Source: a virus | IMG/VR virus record: IMGVR_UViG_3300045738_002140 | Span: 50,177 to 114,176 of that record | Length of the DNA stretch: 64,000 nt | Strand: one strand, 5' to 3' | Shown here: positions 5,447 to 63,993 of the stretch, one piece after another | Layout of the letters: each line of letters starts with the position of its first letter | Position numbering within the stretch: the stretch's first letter is position 1 | The notes under the pieces: model-generated | What the model was told of the DNA's origin: nothing | The model's input: only the letters and a program-made list of their open reading frames with translations | Databases searched by the model: none | Translations under genes and position numbers: made by a program

Positions 5447-6507
5447 GGCTCAAGCATCTCTTCTTGTATCTCTTTTTCTGTGGTTAGCATGGGGCATGTG
5501 TCCATGTTTCTTAGCCATAGGAGCCCGTCTTCTAGCGGGTTTATCTTTTTGTCTAGCGTGGGGAACCTATTGTATAGCGCTATGTCTTTAAATATTTTAG
5601 GCATATTAAGTCCAGCTCGAGTAAAAAAGAGAGACGTTGTAAAGAATCTTGAAATATTTATCTCTGTTGGGTTGGGGGCTCCTTCGCTGTCGTAGGTCAT
5701 GTCAACTCCATAAATTCCATGAGGTTTTTCGTCTATGGATAAGATGGAGTCTTGGGCCACAGTGTCTACACTCTCTGAGGAAAACGTTTCCCCAACCTTT
5801 GTAACTCCGGTTACTCCGGATAATGTTCGGTTGCCTAGGTTCCAAGACCTTCTTTTTCTGGTTTGAGCAACAACTAAGTCTCCTTCATACCAAATAGACA
5901 ACCAAGTAACGCTATTTTTTGTGAGTAGTTCTGCTGCTGTAAACTCACCCCATCCGCTAAATTTACTTATCCACTTCTCTGCAAAATCATAGTCTCCGGT
6001 TGGGAGCGCCCCCCTGCCTCCGCCCCCCACGTTGGCTCTTAACCAAATTTTACCATCATTGTTTCCTAGGGTTTCAAAGGCTTTCTTGAGGTCTTTTGTG
6101 TTCTTAACGGTGATGGTTTTAGGGATTTTTATTCCTGACTTTTCCCATATGGTTGCAGACTTTCCTTTGTCTACGCAGTTCTCTATTACGTCGTGCGGGG
6201 GCATGAAAACCTTAGTTCCCGTATCGGTTATGCTGTACCTGAGTTTCGAGGCTTCTAATATTTCTATGTCGTTTTGGAAGTGGATTAGTTCTGGCTTCTC
6301 TCTGTTTAAAAGTTTTATTAATGACTTTTTGTATCCTTTTTCTGTGGCGCACGGGACTATGTATTTTCTGGCGGCAGCAGAAAGCATAAGGTCGCTTGAG
6401 TCGCAGTTCATTCCTATTATTTCTTCTTCGTGCCCTCCTGCAAAAAGGCACTCTATCACGTTCTCGGAGGGGGTGCCTCCGGCTCCGGCTATTAGTATTT
6501 TAGACAT
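5443..6507 (-). CDS. ATP-grasp ligase (carbamoyl-phosphate-synthase-like)
   Basis: ILIAGAGG, CVDKGKS, GGGGRGA, GVDM, TEINISRF. Confidence 0.8.
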   Translation of the reverse strand: MSKILIAGAGGTPSENVIECLFAGGHEEEIIGMNCDSSDLMLSAAARKYIVPCATEKGYKKSLIKLLNREKPELIHFQNDIEILEASKLRYSITDTGTKVFMPPHDVIENCVDKGKSATIWEKSGIKIPKTITVKNTKDLKKAFETLGNNDGKIWLRANVGGGGRGALPTGDYDFAEKWISKFSGWGEFTAAELLTKNSVTWLSIWYEGDLVVAQTRKRRSWNLGNRTLSGVTGVTKVGETFSSESVDTVAQDSILSIDEKPHGIYGVDMTYDSEGAPNPTEINISRFFTTSLFFTRAGLNMPKIFKDIALYNRFPTLDKKINPLEDGLLWLRNMDTCPMLTTEKEIQEEMLEP

Positions 6508-9149: not shown

Positions 9150-9177
9150 ATTATAAACTAATATGGCAAAAAGGCAA
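9150..9177 (-). promoter_or_regulatory. sigma70-type promoter for the glycan operon, leaderless
   Basis: TTGCCT-16-TATAAT, ATG 5 nt after -10. Confidence 0.65.
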
Positions 9178-9487: not shown

Positions 9488-9519
9488 AAAAAAGAAAAGC
9501 CCCATAAAAAATGGGGCTT
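9488..9519 (-). terminator. intrinsic terminator
   Basis: AAGCCCCAT/ATGGGGCTT stem followed by U-rich tract on minus strand. Confidence 0.75.
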
Positions 9520-9541
9520 GGCGTAAGGTTTTTTATGTTGT

Positions 9542-9727
9542 TTACTTGTCGACCTTTACGCCAGCGCTAACAAGGGGCACCGTTAGGTTAACGTGGTTCC
9601 ACCCTAACGATCCGCTTAGGCAGCTGTTTTTGTTAGCTTTTGGGCCAACGGTTACTGTGCTTGTGCAACCTGCCGCTGTACCTAAGAGAGCGACGGTAAC
9701 AATGATGTATTTAAGTGTTTTCTTCAT
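9542..9727 (-). CDS. small lipoprotein
   Basis: MKKTLKYIIVTVALLGTAAG-C lipobox. Confidence 0.7.
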   Translation of the reverse strand: MKKTLKYIIVTVALLGTAAGCTSTVTVGPKANKNSCLSGSLGWNHVNLTVPLVSAGVKVDK

Positions 9728-16059: not shown

Positions 16060-16091
16060 ATATGATATTACTATCAATCATGCAAAAATAC

Positions 16092-16122
16092 AAAAAAATC
16101 AGGGCACGAATGCCCTGATTTT
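16092..16122 (-). terminator. intrinsic terminator, UUCG tetraloop
   Basis: AAAATCAGGGCA-TTCG-TGCCCTGATTTTTTT on minus strand. Confidence 0.88.
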
Positions 16123-16147
16123 CTTTTGTGGACACTCTCGGGTGCCT

Positions 16148-16441
16148 CTATTGCAGGAGATCCGCCGTGTCTTCTGCTTGTTTCTCGGTGCTTTCGGTGC
16201 TTTCGGTGCTTTCGGTTGAGGAACCTTCCGTTGATGTGGATAGCTCTTCGGACCTATAGACCCTAAAGTCTGGGGCCTTGTCGTTTGTCTTATTGGAGTT
16301 CAAAAAGACAACTACCTTTTCCTTTTCGCCCTCTGCGTTGACCATGTGGCCTGCAAGATACTTGCGTCCAGTGCTTTTGCCTTCCCTTTTCCAAAGGGCA
16401 CCGATTTCCCTGTCACTCCATTTATTAGTGCTGTTGTTCAT
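16148..16441 (-). CDS. small DUF736-like, putative ssDNA-binding protein with acidic tail
   Basis: EIGALWK..GRKYL, KAPDFRV, acidic S/T/E tail. Confidence 0.55.
   Translation of the reverse strand: MNNSTNKWSDREIGALWKREGKSTGRKYLAGHMVNAEGEKEKVVVFLNSNKTNDKAPDFRVYRSEELSTSTEGSSTESTESTESTEKQAEDTADLLQ
16185..16216. repeat. 9-bp tandem repeat (TCGGTGCTT x3.5) encoding TES repeats
   Basis: Directly visible, in frame in the acidic tail. Confidence 0.9.
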
Positions 16442-20289: not shown

Positions 20290-20771
20290 ATATAATATTC
20301 GAAAAGACTTCCTTAAGCGCGGTTAAGCCAACAAAACAGCACCCACAAGACGCTGGCTATGATTTGTACAGCACACACAGGGTTGTTATCAATCCAATGG
20401 AAAGAGCAGTCGTCCCAACTGGAATAATCGCTCAAATTCCTGAAGGATATTATGGCAGGATTGCGCCAAGAAGCGGGTTGGCGATCAGGAATGGGGCGGG
20501 CATACTTGCCGGGGTAATCGACTCAGGCTATGCAGGGGAAATAGGCGTCGTCCTTGTGAACTTAAACCTGCCCGTGTCCCTGTTGAACCCAAGCAAAAAG
20601 ATCGCTGCTTTTGAAAACATGTTCGGACAAAAAGGAAAAATAGAAATAAATCCCGGCGACAGGGTAGCTCAAATAATTATTGAAAAATGTTATGATGTGA
20701 CATGGACAGAGTCAACAGAAACAAAACAGTCCGAAAGGGGAGAGGGAGGTTTTGGTAGCTCAGGAATTTGA
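20286..20771 (+). CDS. dut: trimeric dUTPase
   Basis: AGYDL, PRSGLA, GVIDSGYAG, RVAQ, RGEGGFGSSG. Confidence 0.97.
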   Translation: MNIIFEKTSLSAVKPTKQHPQDAGYDLYSTHRVVINPMERAVVPTGIIAQIPEGYYGRIAPRSGLAIRNGAGILAGVIDSGYAGEIGVVLVNLNLPVSLLNPSKKIAAFENMFGQKGKIEINPGDRVAQIIIEKCYDVTWTESTETKQSERGEGGFGSSGI

Positions 20772-21152: not shown

Positions 21153-21214
21153 TCCTTAAGAAAGGCGTCAACATACTTTTGAAAAAATTATTATAAATTG
21201 ATATATTTTACTAG

Positions 21215-34203: not shown

Positions 34204-34362
34204 ATGATGATCAGAAAAAAAGAAAAATACTACCTAGTGCTTTCCAAATCAAGGAACTACAGGATGGGGGTTTATCCCTATACGGAAGAAGGGAAGAAAC
34301 AGGCAGAAGAGTTCGTAAAAAAGAACAAGAAAACAGAAGAGCTCTATATAGTTGAGAAGTAA
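34204..34362 (+). CDS. small hypothetical protein (52 aa, not in track)
   Basis: MMIRKKEKYYLVLSKSRNYRMGVYPYTEEGKKQAEEF... Confidence 0.55.
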   Translation: MMIRKKEKYYLVLSKSRNYRMGVYPYTEEGKKQAEEFVKKNKKTEELYIVEK

Positions 34363-34441
34363 TGTCACACCTTCACTGTGTCATTTTGTCACACAAACTA
34401 TAAAATATACCACCTTCTCTTGTCTTAATTCAAAAACAAGC

Positions 34442-34457
34442 TGGCACGCTACCTGCT
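34442..34457 (+). promoter_or_regulatory. sigma54 (-24/-12) promoter of hsp20
   Basis: TGGCACG-CTAC-CTGCT, GG-N10-GC spacing. Confidence 0.7.
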
Positions 34458-34471
34458 GAATAGGATGTATT

Positions 34472-34795
34472 ATGAATACATCACTATATACCAATAGGTT
34501 ATTTAACGACCTATTCGATACCCTTAGCTTGGATTCCAGAATCCACCCATCAGAGGAGGCTTACGAGTTTAATGTCAATTTGGCTGGCTTTAAAAAAGAA
34601 AACGTAAAAGTTAAAGCCGAAGACGGACTACTCCACATCAGCGTAGAGCAGGGTGACAGGAGCTACTCCAGATATTTCACAGTCCCAGACAAGGCAGACC
34701 CTACAGCCACGGTAATAAAATACGAAGAAGGTTTATTGCACGTCAAATTTATTAAAAATGAAAAAGAAAAAGGGGTGAATATAGCAGTAAATTAA
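34472..34795 (+). CDS. small heat shock protein (Hsp20/alpha-crystallin)
   Basis: NLAGFKKENVKVKAEDGLLHI, YEEGLLHV. Confidence 0.92.
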   Translation: MNTSLYTNRLFNDLFDTLSLDSRIHPSEEAYEFNVNLAGFKKENVKVKAEDGLLHISVEQGDRSYSRYFTVPDKADPTATVIKYEEGLLHVKFIKNEKEKGVNIAVN

Positions 34796-34831
34796 AGTTG
34801 AAAAACAAAAACCAACCCATATCATTATAGT

Positions 34832-34973
34832 ACATACCAAAAGAACGCTTGTTTGGAAAGTGAGCGCACCTAGAGACTGGGTAAAAAGAGCGTTGTTTTT
34901 ACCCGGCTCTCTTCTCCAAACAAATCTAGGTACTACTAAGCCGGCCTTTGATCTGAGGGCCGGTTTTTTTTTT
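34832..34973 (+). ncRNA. candidate ~140-nt pseudoknotted ncRNA with intrinsic terminator
   Basis: TTGAAA-16-TATCAT (34798-34825); long rod 34849-34923; terminator GCCGGCCTT/AGGGCCGGT + T tract. Confidence 0.7.
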
Positions 34974-35078
34974 GAAAAACTGAATTTTAAACCGAAGGGG
35001 CTTTTTTTGCTTGGGTGGACGATATATATTGTTTTTTTTGATTTAGTGTGACTTTTAGTCTAAAATAATTAGACAAAA

Positions 35079-36173
35079 ATGGAAAGAGAAGACGAAATAA
35101 GAAAAGCCGTTAATTCCTTTGGCCAAGACGATACGACGTACAAAATACCTTCTAATAAAAAAGGTAAAATAAACCTTGGGACACAGGTGACCTTCTCCAC
35201 GCACAGAAGCGGATGGGCTTACGCTATGAGAGCCCTCAAGCCCATCCACAACAAGAAAGGGGTCTATTTTCACGGTTTTCTTGAAGATGTTTTTTGTTGG
35301 AGAAAGAACTCGTACGAAGAGGGAGGACTTCTGCCATTCAAGCATAAATGGTGCGGTTTTTTACATAACCCCGCCTCTGAACCTAATCGCCATCCAAATT
35401 GGTTTTGGGATATGTACTCTGGCCGAGAAATAATTAAATCAGACGCTTTTAAATACAGTTTGGATAACTGCATAGGGCTATGGACGCTCTCAGAAAGTCA
35501 TGCCGAGTTCTTGAGGAAAGAAACAGGGAAAACCATATCTTCACTGATTCACCCTTCGGAGATACCAGAAGTGCAGTTTGACTTCAACAAATTTAAAGAA
35601 AATAAATCAAAAAGAATAATAAACATTGGATATTGGCTTAGAAAAATAAACTCTATTGACATTTTGCCGGTTCATGTAGATAAGTACATCAAGACAAGGG
35701 TATTACCATTCCACAAAGATAGTGTAGCTTATGGACATTTTCTTACGTTAAAAAAACTTGAGTTCAAACATGAGCATTGGTTACGCTCAGCGTGGGGAAA
35801 GTACAATAACGAATCATACAACAGAGTAGACGAACTGAACAGAATCCCTGACGAAGATTACGACAATCTTTTTGTTGACAATATAGCTTTCTTAGACATG
35901 TACGACTCTAGCGCAAACAATGCGGTGATAGAGTGCATAGCTCGTTGTACGCCGCTATTAGTTAACCGGATTCCTTCCATAGTGGAGTATCTTGGGGTAA
36001 ATTATCCGTTTTATTTTGAATCTTTAGAAGAGGCCGCAGAAAAGGCAATGGACGAGAACTTAATAAAAGTTACAAGCGAGCACATGAGGCACAACGTAAA
36101 AACGAGAAAGAAGCTCACACCAGAAGCCTTTCTCAAAGATTTTGTAAATAGCGAGGTATACAAAAAAATATGA
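35079..36173 (+). CDS. GT-B-like putative glycosyltransferase
   Basis: IGYWLRK, DSSANNAVIECIARCTPLLVN resembles GT4 C-terminal domain. Confidence 0.55.
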   Translation: MEREDEIRKAVNSFGQDDTTYKIPSNKKGKINLGTQVTFSTHRSGWAYAMRALKPIHNKKGVYFHGFLEDVFCWRKNSYEEGGLLPFKHKWCGFLHNPASEPNRHPNWFWDMYSGREIIKSDAFKYSLDNCIGLWTLSESHAEFLRKETGKTISSLIHPSEIPEVQFDFNKFKENKSKRIINIGYWLRKINSIDILPVHVDKYIKTRVLPFHKDSVAYGHFLTLKKLEFKHEHWLRSAWGKYNNESYNRVDELNRIPDEDYDNLFVDNIAFLDMYDSSANNAVIECIARCTPLLVNRIPSIVEYLGVNYPFYFESLEEAAEKAMDENLIKVTSEHMRHNVKTRKKLTPEAFLKDFVNSEVYKKI

Positions 36174-49270: not shown

Positions 49271-49638
49271 AAACAATAGAAGAAATAAAATTAAACTGGA
49301 AAAGCCAAGTCTTTTCGAGTAAAGAATGCAAAAAGGCGGAACAACGACTTGAATGTTCGCTTGATGATTTCTTTTGCTCCGAAAGCCCAGAGGCAGCAAG
49401 AAAATTGGTTGATTTATGTGGAAAATTGATTTTTTTATCTAAAAAATGTATTTTTGATTCCAATGCCCTGCTAGACTCTGTGGACAGGTTGTCTGAGGAA
49501 GAATTTGACAATCATAAAGACTTTTTATACGAAATAAGCAAATCCCTTGCCCTTATGGTGGAAGACCATTCCGCGCTAAGAGACAAGATACACCTAACCA
49601 AGCAGTTAATTAAGGATCTCTGTGAAGAAGATAAATAA
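49267..49638 (+). CDS. hypothetical protein
   Basis: ATGA-coupled ORF. Confidence 0.6.
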
Positions 49639-49660
49639 TTTTCTTATCTATTTGTTTATA

Positions 49661-49689
49661 TTGAAAACAAGATCAGACTTGTTTATTAT
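49661..49689 (+). promoter_or_regulatory. sigma70 promoter of tRNA/exbB unit
   Basis: TTGAAA-17-TATTAT. Confidence 0.65.
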
Positions 49690-49747
49690 AGACAAGGTAA
49701 AGAAATTATTTGCTATAATAAAGATACGTTAAGCCTGAATCAGTTTT

Positions 49748-49825
49748 GCTCCGGTAGCTCAACTGGTTTAGAGCACACGCCTTATAAGCGTGAGGTTGTG
49801 GGTTCGAGGCCCACTCGGAGTACCA
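49748..49825 (+). tRNA. tRNA-Ile(UAU)
   Basis: Acceptor GCTCCGG/TCGGAGT, D stem GCTC/GAGC, anticodon stem CACGC/GCGTG with loop CT-TAT-AA, T arm GTGGG-TTCGAGG-CCCAC, A73, encoded CCA. Confidence 0.95.
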
Positions 49826-51690: not shown

Positions 51691-51719
51691 TTGACACACC
51701 CAGAAAACAGTGCTATCCT
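51691..51719 (+). promoter_or_regulatory. sigma70 promoter, leaderless
   Basis: TTGACA-17-TATCCT with TG extension, ATG 6 nt downstream. Confidence 0.8.
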
Positions 51720-57033: not shown

Positions 57034-57062
57034 TTGATTAAATAGAATAAAAATGATATAAT
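57034..57062 (+). promoter_or_regulatory. sigma70 promoter, leaderless
   Basis: TTGATT-17-TATAAT with TG extension, ATG 5 nt downstream. Confidence 0.75.
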
Positions 57063-61528: not shown

Positions 61529-61878
61529 AAACATTTGCAGTAGAGGGGTGCAACTGGCACACGGAAGTTCAAATAAACGATGAACTTTTTGAAAATGAGA
61601 TGGACATGGCTTTTGAGGCCATGACGCAGGGGGTGGAGCGTTTCATTAACGAGGACGAAAGAATAGAGTTGGTTGGCTACGATGAACCCGCGCTAGGGTT
61701 TTTTATGGCAGCGCATGATAGCAGCAAAAAAAATAATTCAACAAATAAGGCGATGTGCCTCACGGAAAAGCTGCTGGTTAATGGGGGTTTTTATGACATA
61801 GCAACAGAGTTTGAAAGCCAGATGCACGGAGCAATAGAGCAGGAGCAACAGGACAAAAAAAACAAGAAGAAGCCTTGA
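61525..61878 (+). CDS. hypothetical protein
   Basis: ORF. Confidence 0.6.
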   Translation: MKTFAVEGCNWHTEVQINDELFENEMDMAFEAMTQGVERFINEDERIELVGYDEPALGFFMAAHDSSKKNNSTNKAMCLTEKLLVNGGFYDIATEFESQMHGAIEQEQQDKKNKKKP

Positions 61879-61903
61879 CTTTTGTTTGATTATATTTTAT
61901 AAT
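61875..61903 (+). promoter_or_regulatory. sigma70 promoter, leaderless
   Basis: TTGACT-17-TATAAT, ATG 5 nt downstream. Confidence 0.85.
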
Positions 61904-62673: not shown

Positions 62674-62702
62674 TTGATATTTTAGGGTCAGCTCGATATA
62701 CT
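62674..62702 (+). promoter_or_regulatory. sigma70 promoter with no ORF before the next terminator
   Basis: TTGATA-17-TATACT. Confidence 0.75.
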
Positions 62703-62707
62703 ATTAA

Positions 62708-62780
62708 GTAACTCTGCGACAAAAATAAAGCTGGACGAGGTTTTGCTCCTTTCTCTCCTTGTTCGGCTTTATTTTTTTTT
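62708..62780 (+). ncRNA. candidate hairpin sRNA with anti-Shine-Dalgarno loop
   Basis: 20-bp stem 62721-62740/62757-62776 (with G-U pairs), 16-nt loop containing CTCCTTTCT, U tract. Confidence 0.55.
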
Positions 62781-62792
62781 AAGTATTTTAAA

Positions 62793-63246: not shown

Positions 63247-63993
63247 ATGCAAGCACAACTAGACTTCATCGGAACCCCGAAAGTAGAGCGGGAACCAGAG
63301 CAGTTTGCTCTTTGGAACAGAGAGGGCAAACCAAACAAACCACAAAAAGACATTGACTTCGCCAATGTTGATACCCTATTTAACTCATTCGATTCGGAAG
63401 AAATTGAACGCTATAAAAATTATTGGGAAAGCGTTAAGCCCAAGAATGATACAGAGATATTTCAGCGTTGGCTTTTTGCTTTTATGTCCGTCCACACAGG
63501 TTGGGAAGCCAACGTGAGAGGCTACGAAGCCGTTAAGGATTGGACTAAATGGGTAAACCGTGATGATGAGCTTGAACGACTGCTCGTACAGAGTCGAGTG
63601 GGCTTGCATAAAAATCGTACAAGATTTATCTCACAGTTTGCCCAAAAATTTTGGAGTGACCCCGAATGGTATAAGCACCAAGAAGGTAACTGGCAAACAC
63701 TCCGCGACAGGCTCGTCAAGAGCATCCTTGGCCTTGGCATAGCAAAGGTATCGTTTTCTCTTGAAATGATTTACCCCAACAAGGCAGAAGTAACCTGTAT
63801 GGATACTCACTTGTTTCAAGCGTATGGGCTTAACCAGACGAAGGACGCTCGCCGCTATAAGGAAATCGAAGACTATTGGCTAGGTATGTGCCGTATGTGG
63901 AACGTGCCATCATACATTGCACGGTGTATCTTGTGGGACAGAAAGCAGGACAAAACCGACAGCAGATATTGGAGCTATGTATTGGAGGATTAA
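63247..63993 (+). CDS. HhH-GPD DNA glycosylase-like (Ogg2/thermostable 8-oxoG glycosylase-like)
   Basis: RDRLVKSILGLGIAKVSF HhH, CMDTHL, Y.EIE. Confidence 0.7.
   Translation: MQAQLDFIGTPKVEREPEQFALWNREGKPNKPQKDIDFANVDTLFNSFDSEEIERYKNYWESVKPKNDTEIFQRWLFAFMSVHTGWEANVRGYEAVKDWTKWVNRDDELERLLVQSRVGLHKNRTRFISQFAQKFWSDPEWYKHQEGNWQTLRDRLVKSILGLGIAKVSFSLEMIYPNKAEVTCMDTHLFQAYGLNQTKDARRYKEIEDYWLGMCRMWNVPSYIARCILWDRKQDKTDSRYWSYVLED

What the first reader, a model, noticed from the sequence alone, without database searches (positions are those of the whole stretch)
34798..34973. Compact ncRNA whose 5' and 3' tails are complementary to its own apical loop and bulge
Seen: promoter TTGAAA-16-TATCAT; rod TTGTTTGGAAAGTGAGC (34849-34865)/GCTCTCTTCTCCAAACAA (34906-34923) continued by TGGGTAAAAA/TTTTTACCCG. 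The one-sided bulge ACCTAGA (34868) is complementary to the 3' tail TCTAGGT (34925), and apical loop GCGTT (34890) to the 5' tail AACGC (34844). A strong terminator follows. Inference: a double pseudoknot, or intermolecular hand-in-hand pairing like phi29 pRNA (self-assembling RNA). I do not recognise the family.
Basis: partly seen in the sequence, partly recalled or inferred. Interest (0 to 1): 0.7.

Follow-up and report, generated by a model that had tools for sequence, protein, structure and literature searches.

The report
Orphan small RNA gene in marine phage
Just after the heat-shock gene of an uncultured marine phage lies what looks like a self-contained gene for a hairpin-shaped non-coding RNA of about 140 nucleotides with no known relatives, but the proposed knotted or self-assembling fold is not supported.

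Summary
These are a sigma70-type promoter, a roughly 95-nt imperfect hairpin rod, a 7-nt bulge/3'-tail complement, a 5-nt loop/5'-tail complement and a strong intrinsic terminator.

The promoter belongs to a class that is enriched in this phage's intergenic DNA and also precedes its tRNA and a second RNA gene. The fold is among the ten most stable 100-nt windows of the 114-kb record. A natural 93%-identical variant carries a 2-nt deletion that frameshifts the only ORF. So a stand-alone non-coding RNA cassette is the best reading.

It matches no Rfam family. I found no homologue in IMG/VR, JGI metagenomes, GTDB genomes or cultured phages. Related phages carry a small membrane-protein gene in the same slot.

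The double-pseudoknot or pRNA-like reading is not supported:
- The 5-nt pair is at chance level (P about 0.07).
- The 7-nt pair is unusual (P about 0.002-0.009) but cannot coexist in cis with the rod as drawn.
- Neither the pseudoknot nor a dimer gains net energy in nearest-neighbour estimates.
- No covariation data could be obtained, and no RNA-seq data exist.

The scan noted this same stretch once before in an overlapping window, not on other DNA. It is an orphan phage small RNA of modest interest.

The parts
34798..34825 (+). sigma70-type promoter TTGAAA-16 nt-TATCAT, starting 3 nt after the hsp20 stop codon
   Evidence: scores it 10/12. In one search, 9 of the 23 promoter-like sites scoring >=10/12 in the window lie in the 11% of DNA that is intergenic. 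Five of those sit 6-8 nt before an ATG, and three precede RNA genes (20768, 34798, 49661). A perfect TTGACT-17-TATAAT occupies the same place after hsp20 in relative G001.
34832..34848 (+). inferred transcription start (A34832, 7 nt after the -10 box) and 17-nt 5' tail, which includes AACGC at 34844-48
   Evidence: Inference from the 6-8-nt spacing between the -10 box and the ATG in the leaderless genes of the same phage. No RNA data.
34849..34865 (+). 5' strand of the rod: P1 at 34849-57, and P1b at 34858-60 plus 34862-65
   Evidence: P1 (9 bp) appears in every low-energy structure. P1b is the MFE pairing once the natural 2-nt deletion is applied.
34866..34877 (+). 12-nt 5'-side bulge GCACCUAGAGAC containing ACCUAGA. 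It is alternatively part-paired (AGAGA/UCUCU) in the reference MFE.
34877..34906 (+). P2 hairpin: 11 bp including one U.G pair, with the 8-nt apical loop GAGCGUUG (34888-95)
   Evidence: The loop is predicted unpaired with probability 0.5-1.0.
34906..34923 (+). 3' strand of the rod: the CU-rich CUCUCUUC segment, then UCCAAACAA
34924..34937 (+). 3' linker AUCUAGGUACUACU between the rod and the terminator. It holds UCUAGGU, which is complementary to the bulge and also, more weakly, to the 5' tail.
34938..34975 (+). intrinsic terminator with a 13-bp stem (6 GC pairs), a 3-nt loop and a U10 tract

Best explanation
This is a stand-alone gene for a non-coding RNA of about 140 nt in an uncultured large marine phage. 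Host sigma70 RNA polymerase would start at about A34832 from TTGAAA-16-TATCAT and stop at the 13-bp/U10 terminator.

The transcript folds into a roughly 95-nt imperfect hairpin rod. It consists of P1 (9 bp), P1b (7 bp), a 10-12-nt purine-rich bulge on the 5' side, P2 (11 bp) and an 8-nt loop. A 14-nt single-stranded linker and the terminator hairpin follow.

The most likely mode of action (inferred, not shown) is that of a trans-acting phage regulatory small RNA. It would be made early and would act on host rather than phage targets. It could pair through the exposed CUAG-containing bulge or 3' linker, or be bound as a rod by a protein.

The same sequence would also form the 3' UTR of hsp20 transcripts, because hsp20 has no terminator of its own. 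The bulge/3'-linker complement is best read as competing pairing or chance, not as a fixed pseudoknot.
For: - Promoter and terminator are at the stated places.
- The promoter type is enriched in intergenic DNA and drives the other two RNA genes of the window, the tRNA-Ile and the RNA at 20768.
- A sigma70 promoter plus terminator cassette sits in the same slot after hsp20 in relatives.
- The fold is strongly non-random.
- The transcript has no ATG. Its only ORF (GTG at 34860, 63 aa) runs through the terminator and is frameshifted by a natural 2-nt deletion in a 93%-identical contig of run X11.
- The stretch 34801-34951 is identical in a contig from another study, and the phage is present in DNA runs of 13 marine studies.
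- No reverse transcriptase is present, there is no second copy, and no phage target is evident. This fits a host-directed or protein-binding role.
Against: - There is no transcript evidence at all.
- No homologue more than about 7% diverged is available, so there is no covariation.
- No target has been identified and the host is unknown.
- Relatives hold a protein gene in this slot rather than an RNA, so the cassette could be a recent, possibly functionless, product of cassette shuffling.
- The sequence just before the terminator is not U-rich as in classical Hfq-binding modules.
- Because hsp20 lacks its own terminator, the structure could serve only as its 3' UTR.
Confidence: 0.5

Rival explanations
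1. The element is the 3' UTR of hsp20. The rod and terminator would stabilise the hsp20 mRNA or serve as a processing site for a double-strand-specific RNase, like the T7-type RNase III hairpins with a lower stem, internal loop and upper stem. The promoter match would be fortuitous or secondary.
For: No terminator lies between the hsp20 stop codon (34793-95) and the rod, so hsp20 transcripts must run into it and end at 34975. The two-stem layout with an asymmetric internal loop resembles phage RNase III sites (established knowledge, not tested).
Against: The promoter is a good match of a type that is clearly used in this phage. Relatives place an independent promoter at exactly this position. 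A 95-nt rod plus a separate 13-bp terminator is more than 3'-end protection needs.
Confidence: 0.15
2. The cassette is a functionless by-product of cassette shuffling. A promoter and a terminator would have been left behind around a palindromic remnant when a small gene was replaced in a hypervariable region, as with PeSL-bounded modules in T4-like phages.
For: The slot is variable. Three relatives carry a homologous 66-71-aa membrane-protein gene there, and flanking genes in this phage are orphans. The rod folds almost as well on the opposite strand, as a DNA palindrome would. PeSL cassettes are described in PMC2839356 and PMC4122927.
Against: There is no similarity to the relatives' gene. 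The sequence is not repeated elsewhere in the record, unlike PeSLs. It is kept intact apart from one 2-nt slip in a relative whose upstream DNA (34302-34690) differs at 10% of sites.
Confidence: 0.15
3. The element is a cis-acting leader (attenuator or riboswitch-like) of the downstream sugar and sulfate modification operon (35079 onward). The rod would be the sensor and the terminator the expression platform.
For: The order promoter, structured RNA, terminator, operon is the usual one. CCGGCU (34903-08, inside P2) can pair with AGCCGG (34939-44, the terminator's 5' arm) as a 6-bp antiterminator (read). Marine phage sugar genes are known to carry candidate cis-RNAs, the manA and wcaG motifs (from memory, not checked).
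Against: A gap of 104 nt separates the terminator from the ATG. A separate promoter-like site (TTGATT-17-TAAAAT, 35038-66) sits 13 nt before the ATG, as at the phage's other leaderless genes. Folding the nascent RNA up to 34950 keeps P1 and P2 and shows no antiterminator. No riboswitch family, manA or wcaG appears even at E<=10. CCGG and GCCGGC are palindromes, so the 6-bp match is cheap.
Confidence: 0.08
4. The first reader's model.
For: The exact 7-nt complement between bulge and 3' linker is rare in shuffles (P = 0.0016, or 0.009 for any pair), and the joint event with a second complement of >=5 nt has P = 0.002. The bulge is the unpaired element in the MFE of the natural deletion variant, and ACCUAGA survives that deletion. 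A fold with only the 9-bp P1 standing and P2 bent back is topologically possible.
Against: - The 5-nt pair alone has P = 0.07.
- The rarity test is post hoc, over a 64-kb window with many hairpins.
- Survival of ACCUAGA follows automatically from slippage in the AGAG run.
- In cis the 7-bp helix (-8.3 kcal/mol) requires loss of P1b or its alternative (7.7-9.6 kcal/mol) plus a pseudoknot penalty.
- A dimer gains about 0 to -3 kcal/mol at 1 M by these numbers.
- The 3' linker has a simpler nested partner in the 5' tail.
- Bulge and loop are not mutually complementary.
- There is no pRNA or ribozyme match.
Confidence: 0.05

Closest known systems
Trans-acting small RNAs with their own promoter placed at the 3' end of a protein gene and sharing its intrinsic terminator ('type I' 3'-UTR sRNAs such as DapZ or MicL; also phage-encoded sRNAs in general)
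   Same: The promoter lies immediately after (here) or inside the upstream gene, there is no ORF, the length is about 100-150 nt, the transcript ends at the gene's intrinsic terminator with a long U tract, and a single-stranded stretch precedes the terminator.
   Different: No target, no chaperone and no conservation are known. The body is one long rod rather than short hairpins with an exposed seed. The host is unknown. The comparison rests on general knowledge, not on a homology test.
phi29 prohead RNA (pRNA, Rfam RF00044)
   Same: It is a phage-encoded RNA of about 120-170 nt with a helical body, a bulge loop and a hairpin loop, and short complementary single-stranded segments that could in principle link molecules.
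   Different: In pRNA the bulge loop pairs with the hairpin loop of the next molecule. Here those two share only 2 complementary nt, and the complements involve the tails. There is no Rfam match. The phage is a >114-kb genome (estimated 66% complete), not a ~20-kb phi29-like phage. No three-way junction is present.
PeSL promoter/stem-loop cassettes of T4-like phages (PMC2839356, PMC4122927)
   Same: An early sigma70-type promoter and a stem-loop or terminator bound a small exchangeable module in a hypervariable region. Relatives carry a different module in the same slot.
   Different: PeSLs are short motifs repeated many times in one genome. This 95-nt rod is single-copy.
PrrF RNA (RF00444), the best Rfam score
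   Same: The general layout of promoter-like 5' end, hairpin and terminator.
   Different: It scores 26.4 bits against a gathering score of 90, and the alignment rests on the promoter and terminator only. It is not a member.

Membership tests
phi29 pRNA (RF00044) | Match to the family covariance model | tested here: not met
   No hit at the gathering threshold over the window, nor among 15 hits at E<=10 over 34700-35100.
   The longest complement between the bulge (34866-77) and the apical loop (34888-95) is 2 nt. The complements found involve the 5' and 3' tails instead.
phi29 pRNA (RF00044) | Encoded by small phi29-like phages, next to the genome end and packaging genes | tested here: not met
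   The record is 114 kb and estimated 66% complete. The locus lies between hsp20 and sugar-modification genes. The nearest cultured phages by RNR reach only 40-46% identity and are 112-202-kb phages of Acinetobacter and Pseudomonas.
Self-cleaving or double-pseudoknot ribozymes (HDV-like, twister, pistol, hatchet, hammerhead) | Match to any Rfam ribozyme model | tested here: not met
   None is listed even at E<=10.
Stand-alone bacterial or phage small RNA gene | Own promoter and intrinsic terminator | tested here: met
   Consensus scans and genome-wide behaviour of the promoter type. By sequence only, with no transcript data.
Stand-alone bacterial or phage small RNA gene | Non-coding | tested here: met
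   There is no ATG. The only ORF crosses the terminator and is frameshifted by a natural 2-nt deletion.
Stand-alone bacterial or phage small RNA gene | Detected transcript of defined length | not testable with these tools
   Only DNA runs hold the stretch.
Stand-alone bacterial or phage small RNA gene | Structure conserved with compensatory changes | tested here: inconclusive
   The only diverged copy seen (run X11, about 93% identical) keeps the rod after a 2-nt deletion. Its substitutions in the RNA were not displayed. No other homologue was found.
Transcription-terminating riboswitch or attenuator leader | Mutually exclusive terminator and antiterminator pairing linked to the sensor, directly upstream of the regulated gene | tested here: inconclusive
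   Only a 6-bp palindrome-based antiterminator is possible, and it is absent from the predicted nascent fold. A 104-nt gap with a separate promoter-like site precedes the gene.
PeSL cassette | Same short promoter/stem-loop motif repeated across the genome | tested here: not met
   There is no second copy by blastn-short over the 114-kb record or by covariance model over the window (own hit 132 bits, next 16 bits).
Retron msr/msd RNA | Adjacent reverse transcriptase gene | tested here: not met
   No RVT_1 match in the record. The downstream 364-aa protein has no Pfam or PHROG match.
CRISPR repeat mimic (solitary repeat / RNA anti-CRISPR) | Hairpin matching a repeat that occurs in arrays in prokaryote genomes | tested here: not met
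   The P2 stem pattern occurs as 102 scattered single hairpins in GTDB genomes, never in arrays, and these match the model only over the hairpin (<=26 bits).

The most novel reading that the evidence does not exclude
The RNA is a new class of phage RNA that uses its 3' linker and 5' tail to dock onto the bulge and apical loop. It would do this within a compact bent fold or between molecules, giving a self-assembling or switchable RNA particle unrelated to phi29 pRNA.
Probability: 0.05. Interest if true: 0.65.

Novelty: new member of a known kind. Interest (0 to 1): 0.3.

Why it matters
Small RNAs of lytic marine phages are almost unstudied. This candidate is cleanly delimited, sigma70-driven and non-coding, and the phage is seen in seawater DNA runs from 13 studies, so it is a usable target for metatranscriptome mapping or cloning. 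With no homologues, no target and no transcript evidence it currently tests no open question. The eye-catching self-assembly idea does not survive the geometric, energetic and statistical checks.

Tried and rejected
- **Rfam:** gathering threshold and E<=10 searches gave only promoter/terminator look-alikes, the best being PrrF at 26 bits against 90.
- **Cultured phages:** blastn against 50,697 phage records found nothing.
- **IMG/VR scans:** an exact 17-mer gave two chance hits. A transition-tolerant structure pattern gave none.
- **Flanking genes:** Hsp20, the 364-aa protein and the 722-aa protein have no close relatives in IMG/VR.
- **RNR relatives:** the RNR large subunit gave 192 relatives. 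Of the 80 loci kept, 50 were submitted and 38 records were held and searched. The single-sequence covariance model R1 found nothing at E<=1 in those 38 records, two of them near-complete.
- **Distant hsp20 loci:** the best R1 hit in 11 loci is a terminator hairpin.
- **JGI metagenome scans:** none by protein pattern and none by RNA pattern.
- **GTDB genome scans:** none for the full pattern, and only scattered generic hairpins for the P2 stem.
- **Read laying:** its table was cut before the RNA region, so the substitutions of the X11 variant inside the RNA are unknown.
- **Sequencing runs:** no RNA holder listed.
- **Targets in the phage:** antisense matches are at most 11 nt. Duplex energies of the four unpaired segments against 131 gene starts do not differ from background.
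- **Coding reading:** rejected.
- **Other identities rejected:** retron, CRISPR-repeat mimic and decayed copy of the relatives' small gene.
- **Other look-ups:** relatives of a virus record cannot be drawn. Earlier-findings look-ups by sequence and by relatives returned nothing new.

Full report
**Where it lies**

The window is the last 64 kb of a 114-kb IMG/VR virus record judged 66% complete. The phage is an uncultured marine one. The stretch occurs in DNA runs of seawater and other marine samples from 13 studies. Its ribonucleotide reductase has 192 relatives at 69-78% identity in IMG/VR, but reaches only 40-46% in cultured phages.

The finding lies between an Hsp20 gene (34472-34795, Pfam PF00011) and a cluster of sulfotransferase, cupin and phosphomannomutase-like genes. 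That cluster starts with an orphan 364-aa gene at 35079.

**Observation**

- **Promoter:** TTGAAA-16-TATCAT (34798-34825) scores 10 of 12.
- **Terminator:** 34938-34966 has a 13-bp stem with 6 GC pairs, followed by ten T.
- **Rod:** 34849-65 with 34906-23 forms 16 pairs with one U.U mismatch and one bulged C. It is continued by the 10-11-bp P2 hairpin with an 8-nt loop.
- **Complements:** ACCTAGA (34868-74) and TCTAGGT (34925-31) are exact complements. So are AACGC (34844-48) and GCGTT (34890-94).

The fold is far from random. The z-score is -4.9 with the terminator and -3.75 without it. The region ranks 8th of 11,408 windows of 100 nt across the record.

There are two qualifications:
The MFE (-30.4) pairs AGAGA of the 'bulge' with UCUCU and forms a small GUG/CAC hairpin.
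- When the 5' end is included, the MFE pairs the 3' tail with the 5' tail (UACC/GGUA and AGA/UCU). This simply closes the rod.

**Is it a gene for an RNA?**

*The promoter type is real in this phage.* Of 23 sites scoring at least 10/12 in the window, 9 lie in the 11% of DNA that is intergenic. Five of those end 6-8 nt before an ATG, which implies leaderless mRNAs. Three precede non-coding genes: the structured RNA at 20768, this element, and tRNA-Ile(UAU) at 49748. By the same spacing, transcription would start at about A34832, giving an RNA of about 140 nt.

*The slot is a transcription unit in relatives too.* In relatives that carry hsp20 (28-47% identity), the gene is followed at the same place by a sigma70 promoter; in G001 this is a perfect TTGACT-17-TATAAT. 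There it drives a homologous 66-71-aa membrane-protein gene ended by a terminator. So the slot after hsp20 is an independent promoter-to-terminator cassette in this phage group. Here it holds a non-coding insert with no similarity to that gene.

*It is not coding.* There is no ATG. The only ORF (GTG at 34860, 63 aa) runs through the terminator. A contig of run X11 covers 34302-35300 at about 93% identity and encodes the 88%-identical Hsp20 P0002. It has a 2-nt deletion at 34872, which frameshifts that ORF.

This is weak comparative support for that rod over the AGAGA/UCUCU alternative. The caveat is that the variant's substitutions inside the RNA were not displayed.

A contig from another study is identical over 34801-34951.

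**Family**

No Rfam family reaches its threshold. At E<=10 the best hit is PrrF at 26 bits against a threshold of 90, aligned only through the promoter and terminator.

No homologue was found anywhere:
- blastn against cultured phages;
- pattern scans of IMG/VR, JGI metagenomes and GTDB genomes;
- a covariance model (own score 132 bits) run over 38 related phage records, two of them near-complete, and over 11 hsp20 loci, where the best hit of 16 bits is a terminator.

Other findings bearing on identity:
- The P2 stem pattern occurs only as scattered single hairpins in prokaryote genomes, so it is not a CRISPR-repeat mimic.
- There is no reverse transcriptase.
- There is no second copy in the phage.
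- No phage mRNA start has above-background complementarity to the unpaired segments.

*Statistics.* I shuffled the four unpaired segments. A 7-nt perfect complement between bulge and 3' tail arises in 0.16% of trials, and between any two segments in 0.9%. A 5-nt complement between 5' tail and loop arises in 7%. Only the first is notable, and it was picked out after reading a 64-kb window.

*Geometry.* The 3' tail leaves the base of the rod with a 1-nt linker, while the bulge lies 16-17 bp up. So the 7-bp helix cannot coexist in cis with the rod as drawn. It becomes topologically possible only if 34858-67 and 34907-14 are unpaired and run alongside P1.

*Energetics.*
- That rearrangement costs 7.7-9.6 kcal/mol. 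This is the difference between P1+P2 alone (-20.8) and the two full folds.
- The 7-bp helix returns only 8.3 kcal/mol before any pseudoknot penalty.
- A symmetric dimer of two reader-type rods with two intermolecular helices comes out within about 0-3 kcal/mol of two free monomers at 1 M. That gives no drive to assemble at cellular concentrations.

These are nearest-neighbour estimates that ignore tertiary and Mg2+ effects. They disfavour the model but do not exclude it.

*Comparison with pRNA.* The defining pRNA contact, bulge loop to hairpin loop, is absent here at 2 nt. The genomic setting is also wrong. Survival of ACCUAGA in the deletion variant follows automatically from slippage in the AGAG run and is not independent evidence.

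**Most likely function**

I commit to a stand-alone, early-transcribed, non-coding phage RNA acting in trans on the host. It would act by base pairing through the exposed bulge or 3' linker, or as a protein-bound rod. Confidence is about 0.5.

The sequence doubles as the hsp20 3' UTR, because hsp20 has no terminator of its own. What the sequence supports is the cassette, the fold and the non-coding nature. Inferred are transcription itself, the start site and the mode of action.

The rivals are:
- an hsp20 3'-UTR stabiliser or RNase III site (0.15);
- a functionless remnant of cassette exchange, in the manner of PeSL-bounded modules (0.15; PMC2839356 and PMC4122927);
- a leader or attenuator of the downstream operon (0.08). 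Arguing against this are the 104-nt gap, the separate promoter-like site 13 nt before the ATG, and the absence of a predicted antiterminator;

**Verdict**

This is a real, well-delimited, orphan small-RNA candidate: a new member of a known kind. The unusual self-complementarity is half chance-level and, for the other half, untestable here. Interest is modest.

Noticed in passing
window 9150-9177(-), 21179-21207, 51691-51719, 57034-57062, 61875-61903: Sigma70-type promoters whose -10 box ends only 6-8 nt before the ATG of the next gene. This implies that many genes of this phage are transcribed as leaderless mRNAs.
   Followed up: partly
L085:1786-1802 and 2079-2095; L092 about 205-221 nt after the hsp20 stop; L095 about 37-54 nt after the hsp20 stop: In related phage records the motif GTGTAA sits 8-9 nt before ATG start codons (read). 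This matches the GTGTAA promoter-like motif that other first-stage notes describe for this phage.
   Followed up: no
L086:1918-2133, L088:1888-2088 (= L084:1801-2001), L089:1781-1990: Three relatives carry a homologous 66-71-aa protein with a hydrophobic segment (TGYAR...L.A.NL..TGY) directly after hsp20, with its own sigma70 promoter and terminator. It is followed by a gene that starts like a UDP-glucose/GDP-mannose dehydrogenase. In this window that cassette is replaced by the RNA.
   Followed up: partly
window 34302-35300 versus the run X11 contig: Substitutions are unevenly spread. There are 40 in 34302-34690 (10%) and only 23 in 34691-35300 (3.8%), so the end of hsp20, the RNA, the spacer and the start of the next gene are together better conserved than the hsp20 promoter and 5' part.
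   Followed up: no
window 63545-63644, 49625-49724, 9495-9594, 16085-16184, 62685-62784, 6045-6144: These are other 100-nt windows with GC-corrected folding energies as extreme as, or more extreme than, the finding. 49625-49724 is the 20%-GC stretch around the promoter and leader of tRNA-Ile. None was examined.
   Followed up: no
window 49748-49825 with promoter 49661-49689: tRNA-Ile with anticodon UAU, preceded by its own TTGAAA-17-TATTAT promoter and a leader of about 59 nt.
   Followed up: no
window 35046-35078: Just before the 364-aa gene lie GTGTGA and an inverted repeat GTCTAA-AATAA-TTAGAC, overlapping the TTGATT-17-TAAAAT promoter-like site. This could be an operator or a 5'-end hairpin.
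   Followed up: no
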